From assembly GCA_048939995.1 (NCBI GenBank), contig JBHLOY010000002.1:352001-416000 (forward strand): a DNA stretch of 64,000 nucleotides, given 5' to 3'. Source of the stretch: Promethearchaeota archaeon. GTDB taxonomy: Archaea > Asgardarchaeota > Lokiarchaeia > Sigyniarchaeales > SOKP01. Shown one piece after another: positions 24,575 to 31,935 of this stretch (the first letter of the stretch is position 1; each line of letters begins with the position of its first letter). The notes below the pieces were generated by a model. That model was not told where the DNA came from and did no database searches. It was given only the letters and a program-made list of their open reading frames with translations. Both the position numbers and the translations under genes were made by a program.

Positions 24575-24704
24575 TGGGTGTTATCTTTCAGTGTTGATTT
24601 TTTTAAGGAACTACCTAATTTATCTTCTAATTATGGTTTGGGTTTAAAAGCAAAAATAAATAGATTTAATAAAAAGTTAGTTTCCAGTAAATATTTTCTC
24701 TTTT
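24575..24704 (+). repeat. Imperfect direct repeat, copy 2 (overlaps the real fwdA stop)
   Basis: Encodes WVLSFSVDFFKELPNLSSNYGLGLK versus WVLTLGVNLFKEMTNLCSDYGLDLK in copy 1. Confidence 0.75.
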
Positions 24705-26428
24705 GGGGCGTAGGCATCTTGGACAGCATAATTGTTAAAGTTGATGCTATAATGATCCCTCCAGCTATGGCGCACATCATCTAACATCTCCTCCATGAGG
24801 CTCTCCTTAAGCTTACCTTCTGCTCGAAGTAAATTCCCCATCGGTGATGCTGTAATCTCTCCGTCTTTCACCACAATTATTCCATCCTTAATTGTATATG
24901 CCGTCGAGCTAAATGCCTTCTCAATATCATGCCCAGTATAATTGTTAGGATCAATCTTATACACTGCCACGTCTCCAATAGCGCCCACACCGAGATGACC
25001 GCGATCTTTCATTCCCAGAATCTTCGAAGTTCCAGCGCGGGTTACCACAGCCAGTTCATAAAGCGAATATTCCCTGTCGATGTCTGCCAACGTAGACGCC
25101 GTGCTTGCTTTCTTATGGACCACATTTTTGAGCATGTCATCTCGAGTTTTCCTATCCATCAACCATTTGAAGGCCATCGGATACGTGGTAAACGGGGCTC
25201 CATTTGGATGGTCGGTCGTAAATCCGATTTGAAAAGGATCCTTTACCAAAAGCATAAGCTCAAGACCAATTGCCCATTGAACCGCATTTACGCTATTTTT
25301 TGCATCAAAAAAATACGGAACTATCCCTGATCCTGATTCTGCTTCAACTTGGCCGTTAACCCACTTAATACCCGGCTTAGATCCCCAACCTGAAAAACCA
25401 CCTAAATGATGGAGAGCAAACTCTCATGCACAGACAAGATGCTCGTCTGTGACCCATGGTCCGTCTCCAGTCATCGTAGTGGTCGCATATTTAGTGAATA
25501 CTACTTGACCGTTATCAATCGTAAGATGCTTATGTGAATTCACATACTCAGCAATTTCTACGGCACCAGAAGTAAAGTCATTCCAATTAGTGCCTCCATA
25601 TGCATTAAATTGACAATGAGTCACATGAAGACTTGTTGTTCGGCTATCACCAGCCTTGATTTTCTCACAGACTTGAAAGGTTTCGAGAGAATGCTTGAAA
25701 TTGCCGGGATGTCCGAGATTGTTGCAATGGACATGAATTGAATGTGGTAATTTCAGAATCTCGTTAACCTTCGCTAGACTCTCAATAATCTGACGAGGAG
25801 TTACATTCCAATGGAAAACAGGATCATTTAAAGATTCACAATTCTTGCCCCAAGCCCAATTTTCAACCCCCCCAGGATTTACAATTTTTATAGCATAGCC
25901 TTTGGTTGCTTGGAGGATCCAATTGACGTATGCGGCGAGCTTATCGATGTCGTTGTCGCGTATATATTTCAGGACGAACCAATTATTTCCATAGATGGGG
26001 AGGGCAGCTTTATCGATGATTGGCATTTCGAGGAATTCTTCATGGGTATGTCGAGCTTCGAGGAGAGGCATTGCGGGTTCGACAGCGGTTGTATAGCCCA
26101 TTTGGGCATATTTATAACCTGTATACCAAGTGCTAAGCACGCTGAACCCGGTACCGGATCGTGTAGTTTTAGTTTTCTTTAGGTTCGATTCGGGCACCTT
26201 GTCTTCAGGTCGTAAAGCTCGTCCGACATTGACTTTAGGTCCAGCAATGTGAGTGTGCATATCAACTCCACCAGGCATTACGACCATTCCAGAAGCATCG
26301 ATTACTTTTGCGTCAGAGTTAACTTTTTCGGCGATAAGTCCATCTTTTATATAGATATCTTTCTTTTCGCCATCGATCTTATTGAGCGGGTCATATACCA
26401 ATCCATTTTTAATGATTAAGTTGCTCAT
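24677..26428 (-). CDS. fwdA: Formylmethanofuran dehydrogenase subunit A, intron-split (exon1 26428..25453, exon2 25422..24677; 573 aa after splicing)
   Basis: PGGVDMHTHIAG, KIVNPGG, HVHCNNLG, HVTHCQF, TTTMTGDGPW|EFALHH, SGIVP, QWAIGLEL, TTDHPNGAPF; both annotated ORFs share one frame, separated by a single UGA. Confidence 0.92.
25423..25452 (-). other. 30-nt bulge-helix-bulge (archaeal-type) intron in fwdA mRNA
   Basis: RNA GGAC-CAUG-GG^U-CACAGACGAG-CAU-CUUGUCUGUG-CAUG-AG^A-GUUU: 4-bp helix, two 3-nt bulges, 10-bp intron stem; excision yields GGA CCA UGG GAG UUU. Confidence 0.88.
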
Positions 26429-26631: not shown

Positions 26632-28509
26632 TCATTTTCTTTGGAGACCAGCATAAAGTAGAAAGAATCCGATAACTAGTAGGATAATAATGAAACCTGG
26701 AAAAAAAGTTGCGAGGGGAACAATATATAAAAATTCTCTAGCTACACTAATGTCACCAGCCAGTGAAATAATTCTGGGATCGGAAAAACCTAAAAAATCA
26801 ATACCGGCATCAACTATCAAAACAAAACCAATAAATAATGGAATATATGGAATTACTTTCTTCGTGATTTCAAACCCATTTAGTCGAGTTTTAGCTATTA
26901 ATAAGGAGAAGAAAGGAATTAAAAAGATCCCATATACTATAGGGAACATCAAGAATCTTGTCCATAGGATAGCTATAGTCGTTAGGATGCCGAAAAATAG
27001 AGGAATACAAAAAAATACAATCATAGAAATTTCAGTTGATAATTTAAATTTACGATTTAAGAGTCCCATTGGAATTCCACATAATAGTCCTCCGATAAAG
27101 CCAATTCCAATTGGAATTAGTACAAAAATAAATGAAGTTCGCATTCCATAAATTGTTCTTGCTAAAACATCACGACCAAATTTTGTTTGGCCAAGAGGAT
27201 GCAGTGGTGAGGGGGGAGACCAAGCTCCTGGAAACACTCCATTTGCATCTTCAAGTGAATATGGAGTTAATATTTGAGGGAAAATTGAAATTAGAACTAA
27301 AAATAAAAGAATCATCGAGCTAATAATTGTTAGGGGAGATAATAATTTTTTATTAAAATAAGATAAAAAGTCTTTAAATTGTTTTTTGAGTTTATTCTTA
27401 TAATTTATATTCACAGTGTTAGTACTATTAATTTTAGATTTTAGGTTGGACGATTTTTGATTTGCTTCTTTAATGTCAGAATGTCTGGAGGTAATTTTAT
27501 TTTTAAGCCGAGGTTTAAGAGCTCCATATCCAACAAATAGAAGATTAGATAACACTAAAAAAATGACAGAAATCATAGCACTTAAAAATAGTATTCCACT
27601 ATGCACCCAATAATCAGAATTCCTTATTGATTGAACGAATAATTGCCCTATTCCAGCTAAACCAAATGTGGTTTCCACCAAAATTATAAACCCAAAAAAG
27701 AGTCCAATACTTATTACTGAATTAAAAGAGTTTGGAACTATTGAACGTGTTTTAGATTTATTAAGATTTAATAAGTATATCCGAACCATTAAGGTGGTTA
27801 AGGATCCGATCCCAATAGTTAAAACTGACCATGGGAGTACCAAATGATATAAGTAATCGGGGATGAGATATAGTTGTCTAGATAACAATGAATCAATAAT
27901 GCGAAAACCTGTTACAAAGGGAGGATCTGGGTATGAATATGTTTTGAAGCCTGTTGTCGGAAATATTGGCAAAAGATAACCTAGAAAGTACTGAAACAGC
28001 ATTCCAAGAAAGAATAAAGGTAACGCACATCCAATAAATGTGAGAATTTGAAATAGTTTATCGCTCCATTTATGTCTAAATTTGACAGAAAGATTTCCAA
28101 ATAATAAACCTAATGAAATGCCAATGAGGAAAGGTAAGATGAATAAATCAATTGTTCTAGGTAAAATAAGCTGAATTAAATTCCATACAGGCATACCCCG
28201 AACGATACTAATAGAAATCCCCCAGTTCCCTGTAAACATTTTCCCAAGATATATGAAAAATTGTTCAATAAGGGGCTTATCTAATCCCAGTTGTCGATAC
28301 ACTTGCATATATAAATTGGGATCAACATGACCCTCGGGTAAATATGCTAAAACGGGATCTCCGGGCAAAAACCTTGATAGCATAAATGATACGTACAGTG
28401 CAAGAAAAAATAGCACCCCCCCTATAATTAAAGTATAAATTAAGTTTAAGTAGATTTTTTTTATTCCAAATCGAGTATTATTATTACTCATAATAAAATT
28501 AAACCACAA
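26632..28509 (-). CDS. Fused DppB-DppC-like ABC peptide permease, paralog 1
   Basis: LPGDPV...GLDKPL..QF (DppB N-terminus) and PPSPLHPLGQTKFGRDVLAR (DppC N-terminus). Confidence 0.85.
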   Translation of the reverse strand: MWFNFIMSNNNTRFGIKKIYLNLIYTLIIGGVLFFLALYVSFMLSRFLPGDPVLAYLPEGHVDPNLYMQVYRQLGLDKPLIEQFFIYLGKMFTGNWGISISIVRGMPVWNLIQLILPRTIDLFILPFLIGISLGLLFGNLSVKFRHKWSDKLFQILTFIGCALPLFFLGMLFQYFLGYLLPIFPTTGFKTYSYPDPPFVTGFRIIDSLLSRQLYLIPDYLYHLVLPWSVLTIGIGSLTTLMVRIYLLNLNKSKTRSIVPNSFNSVISIGLFFGFIILVETTFGLAGIGQLFVQSIRNSDYWVHSGILFLSAMISVIFLVLSNLLFVGYGALKPRLKNKITSRHSDIKEANQKSSNLKSKINSTNTVNINYKNKLKKQFKDFLSYFNKKLLSPLTIISSMILLFLVLISIFPQILTPYSLEDANGVFPGAWSPPSPLHPLGQTKFGRDVLARTIYGMRTSFIFVLIPIGIGFIGGLLCGIPMGLLNRKFKLSTEISMIVFFCIPLFFGILTTIAILWTRFLMFPIVYGIFLIPFFSLLIAKTRLNGFEITKKVIPYIPLFIGFVLIVDAGIDFLGFSDPRIISLAGDISVAREFLYIVPLATFFPGFIIILLVIGFFLLYAGLQRK

Positions 28510-30078: not shown

Positions 30079-31935
30079 TTAATTTTCCAGGACTGATTTT
30101 CGTAGACCAAGATATAGGAAGAAGAATCCTAAGACTAATAAGATTGTAAAGAGACCCGGAAAAAAAGATGCCCAAGGAGCCACATATAGAAATGTTCTTG
30201 CGACACTCATATCATAGCCAAGTGAAATCATTGTGGGATTAGAAAAACCTAGAAAGCCTAAACCTAATTGGATTAATATAACAAAACCAACAAATAAAGG
30301 AATGTAGGGAATAACTTTTTTCATTATATCAAATCCATTTAATCGAGTTTTAGCTATTATTAGAGTAAAAAATGGAATCAATAATAATCCAAGCCCTGTC
30401 ATAGGTATAGGAATAATCATTCCTACAATTGAACTAACGATTAATAAACCAATAATCATAGGATAGATAAAAAAGATAATCATAGATATTTCAACTGACA
30501 TTTTAAATCGTCGATTTAATAGACTCATAGGGATTCCAATTAGTAAGCCTCCTAATAACCCAATTCCAATAGGAATTAGGGAAGTTAGTAATGAACTTTG
30601 AATACCATATACAATCCTAGCGTACACATCGCGACCAAATTGCGTTGTACCTAGAGGATGTAGTGGTGATGGTGCGTTCCATGGATCAGCGTATATTCCA
30701 ATTGCATCTTCAAATGTATATGGAGTTAATATTTGAGGGAATATTGAAATCAGAAGGAAGAAAATAACAAACACTGAACCAATTATGGTTGACGGTGAGA
30801 TCAACTTCTTATAGAAATAGTGTGAGAATGTTCTAAATGAACTCTTTGTCGTATTATTTTGTCTTTTGTGTTCTTGATTAATACTTTTTTCATTATTCTC
30901 CGTAGATCCTTCTTCCTTACTTTCATTATTTGGATTTCCAAATTTTTTTTTCCCAATGTGAGGTCTGATAACTCCAAATACTATATATAGAAGATTAACA
31001 AACACAATTAGGATAATGAAAGTAATAGGGATCAAAAACATTACTGCGTTAATTACCCAATAATCAGCATACATTAATCCTTCGATTGCTAGCTCAGTAA
31101 ATCCATGTAGATTAAAAATAGTTTCGATAAATATCAGGTTAGCAAAAATTATCCCAAAAGAGATAGCAATGTTAAAAGAATTTGGAACTATTGAGCGCCT
31201 TCTAGACTTATTTTTCAAGTATATTCGAGTTAGTAATGTGACTAATGAACCAATCCCAATTGTTAAAATAGACCACGGTTGGACAAAATGATATAGATAG
31301 TCTGGTATATAATATAACTCTCCTGATAGAAGTGAATCAATAATTCGAAATCCAGTAACAAAAGAGGGATCGCCATATGAAAAGGTTTTATATCCAGTAG
31401 TGGGAAATAATGGAATTAAATAGCCAAGAAAGTATTGAAATAACATTCCAAGTAAAAACACAGGAATGGCACATCCTATAAGAGCAAGAGTTTGAAAACT
31501 TCTATCTAGCCATTTATTCTTCAGTTTAACTCCAAGATTTCCAAATAAAAGCCCTAAAGTAGTCCCAACTAACAAAGGTAGCAAGAGAAGATCAATTGTT
31601 CTTGGCAGATTTGTTTTAATCATAAAAGAAACATCCGCACCATGAGCAATAGATAAAGAAATTCCCCAGTTTCCAGTAAACATTCTAAAAAGGTACATAA
31701 TGAATTGTTCATAAAGAGGTCTATCAAATCCTAATTGGTGATACATTTGATCATATTCTGCAGGTGTAAATGGAGTAGGAAGATACGCTAGTACAGGATC
31801 TCCGGGTAAAAATCTTGAAATTAGAAACGAGAGCACTAATACTAGAAAATACAGTACTAATCCGATAGTGAAAGTGTAAATTAGGTTTAGGTAAACTTTT
31901 GGTATCTTGGCATAAGTTCTATTAATATCTTGCAT
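30079..31935 (-). CDS. Fused DppB-DppC-like ABC peptide permease, paralog 2
   Basis: Same architecture and strong similarity to 26632..28509. Confidence 0.85.
   Translation of the reverse strand: MQDINRTYAKIPKVYLNLIYTFTIGLVLYFLVLVLSFLISRFLPGDPVLAYLPTPFTPAEYDQMYHQLGFDRPLYEQFIMYLFRMFTGNWGISLSIAHGADVSFMIKTNLPRTIDLLLLPLLVGTTLGLLFGNLGVKLKNKWLDRSFQTLALIGCAIPVFLLGMLFQYFLGYLIPLFPTTGYKTFSYGDPSFVTGFRIIDSLLSGELYYIPDYLYHFVQPWSILTIGIGSLVTLLTRIYLKNKSRRRSIVPNSFNIAISFGIIFANLIFIETIFNLHGFTELAIEGLMYADYWVINAVMFLIPITFIILIVFVNLLYIVFGVIRPHIGKKKFGNPNNESKEEGSTENNEKSINQEHKRQNNTTKSSFRTFSHYFYKKLISPSTIIGSVFVIFFLLISIFPQILTPYTFEDAIGIYADPWNAPSPLHPLGTTQFGRDVYARIVYGIQSSLLTSLIPIGIGLLGGLLIGIPMSLLNRRFKMSVEISMIIFFIYPMIIGLLIVSSIVGMIIPIPMTGLGLLLIPFFTLIIAKTRLNGFDIMKKVIPYIPLFVGFVILIQLGLGFLGFSNPTMISLGYDMSVARTFLYVAPWASFFPGLFTILLVLGFFFLYLGLRKSVLEN

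What the first reader, a model, noticed from the sequence alone, without database searches (positions are those of the whole stretch)
25411..25468. Canonical bulge-helix-bulge intron inside the protein-coding gene fwdA
Seen: the two fwdA ORFs share one frame, broken by a single UGA within a 30-nt insert. The mRNA reads GGAGAC GGAC CAUG GG^U CACAGACGAG CAU CUUGUCUGUG CAUG AG^A GUUU GC UCUCC. It folds into a 10-bp intron stem (one G-U), a 4-bp CAUG/CAUG central helix, two 3-nt bulges on opposite strands (GGU, AGA) and an exon-exon helix (GGAC/GUUU, GGAGA/UCUCC). Cutting after the second base of each bulge removes exactly 25452..25423, deletes the stop and gives ...TGDGPW-EFALHHL..., a 573-aa FwdA. 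Established: this is the substrate geometry of the archaeal tRNA splicing endonuclease EndA, with RtcB ligation; BHB introns are known in tRNA and rRNA, and in mRNA mainly in crenarchaeal cbf5. Inference: a spliced mRNA intron in a central C1-metabolism gene of an Asgard archaeon. I know of no description of this, and pipelines would call it a pseudogene.
Basis: partly seen in the sequence, partly recalled or inferred. Interest (0 to 1): 0.97.

Follow-up and report, generated by a model that had tools for sequence, protein, structure and literature searches.

The report
tRNA-type mini-intron splitting Asgard fwdA
A key one-carbon metabolism gene of an Asgard archaeon, and at least six other genes in the same genome, is broken by a roughly 30-base insert shaped like a tRNA intron, so the messenger RNA almost certainly has to be cut and rejoined before the protein is made, which the papers I could search show inside a coding sequence only for one archaeal gene (cbf5).

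Summary
Confirmed. The 30-nt insert (25452-25423, minus strand) folds as a canonical bulge-helix-bulge (minimum-energy fold, z -4.3; strongest such motif in the genome, none as strong in 11 shuffles). Removing it restores a 573-aa FwdA; 79 intronless orthologs have no extra residues there. Eleven other Lokiarchaeia sequences carry a 30-nt insert at the same codon with compensatory pairs (10 of 18 pairs in a 10-sequence alignment, one across the exon-intron helix). Their stops differ in type and position. The 55 codons after the stop lack a start codon yet are under purifying selection. The insert is in DNA of independent studies. The genome encodes two EndA subunits and RtcB and has six more such introns, two in its only EF-1alpha and MetRS genes, so mRNA splicing is close to obligatory. 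No RNA reads were available, so splicing is inferred (about 0.93). Two motif-only hits proved false. Published precedent found: crenarchaeal cbf5 and a Haloferax 5' UTR; nothing for Asgard mRNA. This scan already noted the class in at least 24 genomes, including this fwdA codon in another genome. New variant of a known kind.

The parts
25453..26428 (-). fwdA exon 1 (ATG to the first base of codon 326); holds the HxH pair (His58, His60), the Lys181 motif and the His232/234 and His268/271 motifs
   Evidence: (FwdA profile positions 2-327)
25423..25452 (-). 30-nt BHB intron; contains the in-frame UGA at 25426-25424
24677..25422 (-). fwdA exon 2 (rest of codon 326 to the stop); holds the TTDHP motif (Asp396, by homology the aspartate ligand of the binuclear zinc site); first in-frame start codon only at 25255 (codon 382)
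   Evidence: (profile positions 332-563)
25455..25458 (-). central 4-bp helix, exon strand (CAUG)
   Evidence: A-U to U-A change on both sides in 4 of 10 sequences
25425..25428 (-). central 4-bp helix, intron strand (CAUG)
25452..25454 (-). 5' bulge GGU; predicted cut between 25453 and 25452
25422..25424 (-). 3' bulge AGA; predicted cut between 25423 and 25422
25429..25451 (-). intron hairpin: 10-bp stem and 3-nt loop
   Evidence: all 9 counted pairs show changes on both sides
25459..25475 (-). exon-exon helix, exon-1 strand
25405..25421 (-). exon-exon helix, exon-2 strand

Best explanation
The insert is a bulge-helix-bulge intron in the fwdA pre-mRNA. The transcript folds so that exon and intron form a 4-bp helix between two 3-nt bulges (shown by folding and covariation). 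The cell's two-subunit tRNA splicing endonuclease cuts after the second base of each bulge (inferred from geometry; enzyme genes shown). RtcB joins the exons (inferred), which rebuilds the Glu326 codon, removes the UGA and gives a 573-aa FwdA with its complete zinc site. The excised 30-mer is probably circularised (inferred from archaeal tRNA introns, own knowledge). It is one of at least seven such mRNA introns in this genome. It is most likely a tolerated passenger kept spliceable by selection, not a regulator.
For: BHB is the minimum-energy fold and the top genome-wide hit. Orthologs and solved FwdA structures have a clean 10-codon gap; 78 of 79 intronless orthologs have Glu there. The same-site 30-nt insert occurs in 12 sequences, sharing as little as 7 of 30 bases among the 10 compared, with 92.8% of cells paired, 10 of 18 pairs changed on both sides, 0 of 500 shuffles for score and at most 41% paired when slid. 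In 8 of the 9 relatives only the BHB cut register gives the best ortholog match; L128 has two equal registers and L132 has one mismatch in the central helix. Codons 327-381 have pN 0.03-0.06 against pS 0.71-0.73 among the three genus-level intron-bearing genes. The 5-bp outer helix is perfect in 10 of 10 intron-bearing and 12 of 79 intronless genes (kin are not independent). EndA with the Tyr/His/Lys triad, a His-less partner and RtcB are present. The only EF-1alpha and MetRS genes carry 33- and 32-nt BHB inserts; only the BHB register restores GHIDHGKST. In a motif-free comparison over about 1000 gene pairs, the three well-supported frame-breaking inserts are all BHB-shaped.
Against: No spliced read, peptide or cleavage assay. 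The central helix has only 0.46 pairing probability. A strong BHB alone is not proof: two of the four best motif hits were ordinary coding sequence. One related insert (G106, fwdA codon 194) gives Glu in the BHB register where 83 of 84 orthologs have Lys or Arg.
Confidence: 0.93

Rival explanations
1. Translational bypass (ribosome hopping, as in T4 gene 60 or yeast mitochondrial byps): the ribosome skips the 30 nt and no RNA is cut.
For: Short hairpin-forming insert with a stop; the PurM-like insert has a repeated Val codon at both ends, and UGG/UGA are near-matched here.
Against: Eight of the nine sites seen, including this one, cut inside a codon. A codon-to-codon hop would give Lys or Gln in place of the conserved Glu in relatives, Ser in place of Thr in the PurM-like gene, and no Walker A Lys in EF-1alpha. 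No matched take-off and landing codons in L128-L130 or L169. Exon-intron and exon-exon pairing is conserved, which hopping does not need.
Confidence: 0.025
2. UGA is read through or decoded as selenocysteine, giving a 583-aa protein with ten extra residues.
For: The insert is in frame and its only stop is UGA in this genome, G010, G029, G140, L127, L131 and L132.
Against: Relatives have UAA two codons earlier at the same site (L128-L130, L169, G151). The encoded peptides are not conserved. Inserts of 31 and 32 nt in fwdA, MetRS and CaiB shift the frame. No intact ortholog has extra residues there.
Confidence: 0.015
3. The gene is dead (insertion pseudogene), or is expressed as two separate polypeptides of 334 and 192 aa.
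For: In-frame stop; split call by a public pipeline; patchy distribution; a distant paralog at 28% identity exists.
Against: No other lesion in the intron-bearing copies. dN/dS is 0.01-0.04 where estimable in the genus-level pairs, as low as in intronless pairs, including the 55 codons between the stop and the next start. fwdB and fwdC are intact. The same kind of insert sits in essential single-copy genes.
Confidence: 0.02
4. Assembly artefact.
For: The genome is a MAG.
Against: A contig from an independent mangrove study spans the insert with 0 differences. A soil-study contig has a variant with three changes in the insert, two in the loop and one G-C to G-U. Diverged inserts occur in 11 other sequences.
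Confidence: 0.005

Closest known systems
cbf5 pre-mRNA intron of Crenarchaeota (Desulfurococcales, Sulfolobales; Watanabe 2002, Yoshinari 2006, Yokobori 2009 PMC2738675)
   Same: Short non-coding intron inside a protein-coding sequence, BHB boundaries, cuts between the second and third bulge residues, host with a hetero-oligomeric EndA, lineage-specific presence and absence.
   Different: Different phylum (Asgard) and unrelated gene. The motif here is canonical, whereas cbf5 introns often have relaxed motifs. At least seven genes per genome instead of one, and three sites within fwdA across relatives. cbf5 splicing is shown by cDNA; this is not.
BHB intron in the 5' UTR of Haloferax volcanii HVO_1309 (Schwarz 2020, PMC7714728)
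   Same: mRNA substrate of EndA, confirmed in vitro.
   Different: It lies in an untranslated region; here the intron breaks the reading frame.
Archaeal tRNA and rRNA BHB introns, including the intron-rich tRNA genes of Asgard archaea (bioRxiv 10.64898/2026.10.13.758758)
   Same: [quoted passage not shown]
   Different: Host is an mRNA. That preprint has no mention of mRNA or cbf5. The fwdA intron has no significant match elsewhere in the genome.
IRE1/RtcB splicing of XBP1 (HAC1) mRNA in eukaryotes (own knowledge, not tested)
   Same: Protein-catalysed removal of a short intron from a coding mRNA, with exon joining by a tRNA ligase.
   Different: Different nuclease and RNA motif, and stress-regulated; no evidence of common origin or of regulation here.

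Membership tests
Archaeal BHB (EndA-type) intron | 4-bp central helix flanked by two 3-nt bulges on opposite strands | tested here: met
Archaeal BHB (EndA-type) intron | Flanking exon-exon and intron-intron helices | tested here: met
   5 bp (16 in all) and 10 bp; pairing probability 0.98-0.99 at the closing pairs
Archaeal BHB (EndA-type) intron | Cuts after the second base of each bulge restore the host sequence | tested here: met
Archaeal BHB (EndA-type) intron | Structure conserved while sequence varies | tested here: met
   PurM-like intron
Archaeal BHB (EndA-type) intron | Host encodes EndA and an RNA ligase | tested here: met
   two EndA paralogs (C3 with Tyr/His/Lys triad, C28 without the His) and RtcB on C19
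Archaeal BHB (EndA-type) intron | Spliced RNA exists in vivo | not testable with these tools
   no RNA run listed for this stretch
Archaeal BHB (EndA-type) intron | Cleavage by EndA in vitro; circular excised intron | not testable with these tools
   bench experiment
cbf5 intron family | Located in the cbf5 gene of Crenarchaeota | tested here: not met
   host is fwdA of Lokiarchaeia
Group I / group II self-splicing intron | Ribozyme core of hundreds of bases | tested here: not met
   30 nt; no Rfam match in the window
Programmed translational bypass | Matched take-off and landing codons, codon-boundary gap | tested here: not met
Selenocysteine UGA recoding | UGA at a conserved Cys/Sec position | tested here: not met
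   no such position in orthologs; stop is UAA at another codon in relatives
FwdA (formylmethanofuran dehydrogenase subunit A) | Full-length match to the FwdA profile with four His, Lys and Asp of the binuclear site | tested here: met
   halves match NF042911 positions 2-327 and 332-563; motifs located; ligand set from PMC6926001, residue assignment by homology

The most novel reading that the evidence does not exclude
EndA/RtcB splicing is a routine step of mRNA expression in Lokiarchaeia, needed for essential genes, and these 21-33-nt introns are a population still being gained at preferred sites and passed between lineages. The closest prokaryotic relatives of eukaryotes would then have a genome-wide, protein-catalysed mRNA splicing system that annotation reads as split genes.
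Probability: 0.4. Interest if true: 0.92.

Novelty: new variant of a known kind. Interest (0 to 1): 0.8.

Why it matters
The 2020 paper on EndA substrates counts cbf5 as the only other known archaeal mRNA intron (PMC7714728), and six literature searches found nothing on Asgard mRNA introns. A single Asgard genome with at least seven interrupted genes, including its only EF-1alpha and MetRS, changes how common archaeal mRNA splicing is thought to be and bears on what intron handling existed near the origin of eukaryotes. It also affects metabolic reconstruction: fwdA is called as two fragments, so the C1 pathway can be mis-scored. The fwdA case is an unusually clean test substrate: a canonical motif, 12 natural variants and intronless relatives.

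Tried and rejected
RNA evidence: no RNA holder listed; this is no evidence either way. One contig of run X19 (type unknown) lacks 30 nt across the site, but its 72 intervening bases do not align at 85%, so it is a divergent intronless relative, not a spliced form. Motif-only candidates C23:69258-69287 (the ten codons are kept in all 30 orthologous loci) and C23:117233-117261 (frame open for about 302 aa here and in relatives) were rejected. My strict scan first suggested only two introns per genome; it missed 5'-proximal introns with short outer helices, which came from scan leads and were then verified. rnhB, rpoA1, pyrG and the ThiF/E1 genes, intron-bearing in other genomes by scan notes, are uninterrupted here; a mevalonate kinase motif search found nothing. 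A cross-gene alignment for a covariance model was unusable, so no model was built. No source for the intron sequences in the genome. The sigma-70 promoter scan was uninformative. The first genome scan timed out and a regex error was corrected. Gain against loss could not be resolved: the fwdA tree needs at least 5 changes and the PurM-like tree 4. The six metagenome loci were selected by a pattern requiring an insert, so they are left out of frequency counts.

Full report
Observation. The frame from 26428 to 24677 on the minus strand has one internal stop, and removing 25452..25423 gives a 573-aa protein reading GDGPW-EFALHHL. The two annotated halves match consecutive parts of the FwdA profile, positions 2-327 and 332-563. 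The unconstrained fold of 25475-25405 is the bulge-helix-bulge itself, at -31.2 kcal/mol, z -4.26. In a wider context the flanking pairs form with probability 0.98-0.99 and the central helix with 0.46.

Chance. A strict scan of the 3.75-Mb genome ranks this site first (-27.1 kcal/mol). Two real sites fall at or below -20; none does in 11 shuffled genomes, and one does across 8 decoy bulge geometries. The motif alone is not enough: two of the four best hits are ordinary coding sequence. The case rests on comparison with relatives.

Organism. Named genomes of the same genus are Promethearchaeota (Lokiarchaeia) MAGs such as DZ3M.354, YT2_053 and E44_bin85. The Asgard assignment holds.

The insert is real DNA. 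A contig from an independent mangrove study spans it with no difference. A soil-study contig carries three changes in it, two in the loop and one turning G-C into G-U.

Orthologs. Of 30 loci, 27 lack exactly these ten codons, as does the solved FwdA shown in the alignment. Of 79 intronless orthologs, 78 have Glu after the Trp. Among 121 Lokiarchaeia genomes with a match, 6 have a stop-containing insert at this codon, in two genera of one family. With six metagenome contigs there are 12 sequences, all with exactly 30 nt; among the ten compared, identity is as low as 7 of 30. On those ten, 92.8% of cells pair, 10 of 18 pairs change on both sides, and sliding the partners drops pairing to 41% or less. 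One change crosses the exon-intron helix: CAUG/CAUG becomes CUUG/CAAG in four sequences, while L132 has a mismatch there. In this genome two cut registers give the same mRNA, but in 8 of the 9 relatives only the BHB register gives the best match; the codon-boundary alternative gives Lys. Stops differ: UGA here, UAA two codons earlier in L128-L130, L169 and G151.

The gene is alive. Among the three intron-bearing genes of this genus, pN is 0.03-0.06 and pS 0.71-0.73 over codons 327-381, which lie after the stop and before the next start codon. These codons are translated, which needs the stop removed. Exon 2 carries the TTDHP aspartate (Asp396), by homology the aspartate ligand of the zinc site described for FhcA (PMC6926001). 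This is the only canonical fwdA in the genome, and fwdB and fwdC are intact about 113 kb away. The 5-bp exon-exon helix next to the bulges is perfect in 10 of 10 intron-bearing genes and 12 of 79 intronless ones, which suggests selection on synonymous sites or insertion into ready-made hairpins; related genomes inflate that contrast.

Machinery. The genome has two EndA paralogs, one with the Tyr, His and Lys of the catalytic triad and closest to a crenarchaeal-type subunit, one lacking the His, plus RtcB (triad identity from own knowledge and the alignments). ARAGORN finds only 24 tRNA genes, most with introns, in line with the intron-rich tRNAs reported for Asgard archaea (bioRxiv 10.64898/2026.10.13.758758).

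Not an isolated case. My scan found a second intron in a PurM-like (AIR synthase related) gene, C23:175447-175418, present in 8 of 30 orthologous loci with covariation. Scan notes on this genome pointed to five more, which I verified: EF-1alpha (33 nt), MetRS (32), CaiB-type CoA transferase (31), PurA (30) and a low-molecular-weight phosphatase (21, weakest fold). Each has a 4-bp central helix and restores a conserved motif, though outer helices are short. EF-1alpha and MetRS are single-copy in this 98%-complete genome, and only the BHB register gives GHIDHGKST. A motif-free comparison with 1.9 Mb of two relatives (about 1000 gene pairs) found three well-supported frame-breaking inserts in this genome, all BHB (fwdA, PurM-like, MetRS), three weak N-terminal calls, and none in the reverse direction, where N-terminal exons were not tested. 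Seven is a lower bound. fwdA itself has two more sites in relatives: codon 194 (G010, 30 nt; G106, 31 nt) and codon 342 (L131, 30 nt; L127, 31 nt). The G106 insert is discordant, giving Glu where orthologs have Lys or Arg.

Mechanism. Shown: the fold, its conservation, the register, selection on the joined protein, and the enzyme genes. Inferred: transcription through the site, two cuts by EndA, ligation by RtcB, and a circular 30-mer. Unknown: how the introns arise and whether splicing is regulated. The fwdA tree needs at least five changes of state. Introns 26-28 of 30 identical sit in hosts with near-saturated synonymous sites, which fits either strong constraint or transfer. Eight of nine sites cut after the first base of a codon (about 0.003 by chance for any one phase, small and partly selected sample), unexplained.

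Rivals. Artefact, pseudogene, split protein, selenocysteine or readthrough, and ribosome hopping each fail a direct test above; together I give them about 0.07.

What is known. Archaeal mRNA splicing by EndA is published for cbf5 (PMC2738675) and a Haloferax 5' UTR (PMC7714728); the 2009 paper notes unconfirmed predictions in other genes. Searches for Asgard mRNA introns returned nothing relevant, within a library that lacks most subscription papers. This scan has 35 notes of the class in at least 24 genomes, one at this fwdA codon and two claiming RNA-level joins for other genes; these are unchecked leads and are not counted as support.

Verdict. A real BHB intron in fwdA, almost certainly spliced (0.93), working like the cbf5 intron but not a member of that gene family: a new variant of a known kind. 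Interest 0.8.

Noticed in passing
G000 C11:167345-167313 (-), C6:82172-82203 (+), C7:109926-109897 (-), C38:64707-64737 (+), C17:37247-37267 (+), C23:175447-175418 (-): Six further BHB-type introns in EF-1alpha, MetRS, PurA, a CaiB-type CoA transferase, a low-molecular-weight phosphatase and a PurM-like gene.
   Followed up: yes
L002:2066-2126, L327 (G106), L131:831-891, L127:13146-13219: Two more intron sites in fwdA of relatives (codons 194 and 342), each with a 30-nt and a 31-nt version; G010, L127 and L131 carry two introns in one gene.
   Followed up: partly
nine intron sites: Eight of nine cut after the first base of a codon, which places an in-frame codon where the anticodon sits in a tRNA anticodon loop.
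   Followed up: no
L036:2259-2288 (G000 C23:69258-69287): A near-perfect BHB fold lies over conserved coding sequence of an unknown membrane protein; long helices recur in several relatives. Not an intron by ortholog comparison, but it could be an EndA target.
   Followed up: partly
G000 C6:43131-46471: A distant FwdA paralog (28% identity) lies next to a second FwdB-like gene; similar paralogs occur across the genus.
   Followed up: no
window 26632-28509 and 30079-31935: Two ABC-transporter permease genes that each fuse a DppB/NikB-like and a DppC/NikC-like domain; fwdA stands alone downstream of the first, away from fwdB and fwdC.
   Followed up: no
whole genome: ARAGORN finds only 24 tRNA genes in a 98%-complete genome, most with introns, so many multi-intron tRNAs are probably missed.
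   Followed up: no
L037, L044 (PurM-like gene): This gene is only about 72% identical between G000 and G010, whose other tested genes are 84-91% identical, and the two do not group in its tree; possible gene exchange.
   Followed up: no
L136, L140, L209 and others: Several record titles (Nanopelagicaceae bacterium, Hodarchaeota, Odinarchaeota) belong to genomes that the genome search places in this Lokiarchaeia genus.
   Followed up: no
L129:4066-4527: A second, partial fwdA copy (codons 419-572) lies downstream of the intron-bearing gene.
   Followed up: no
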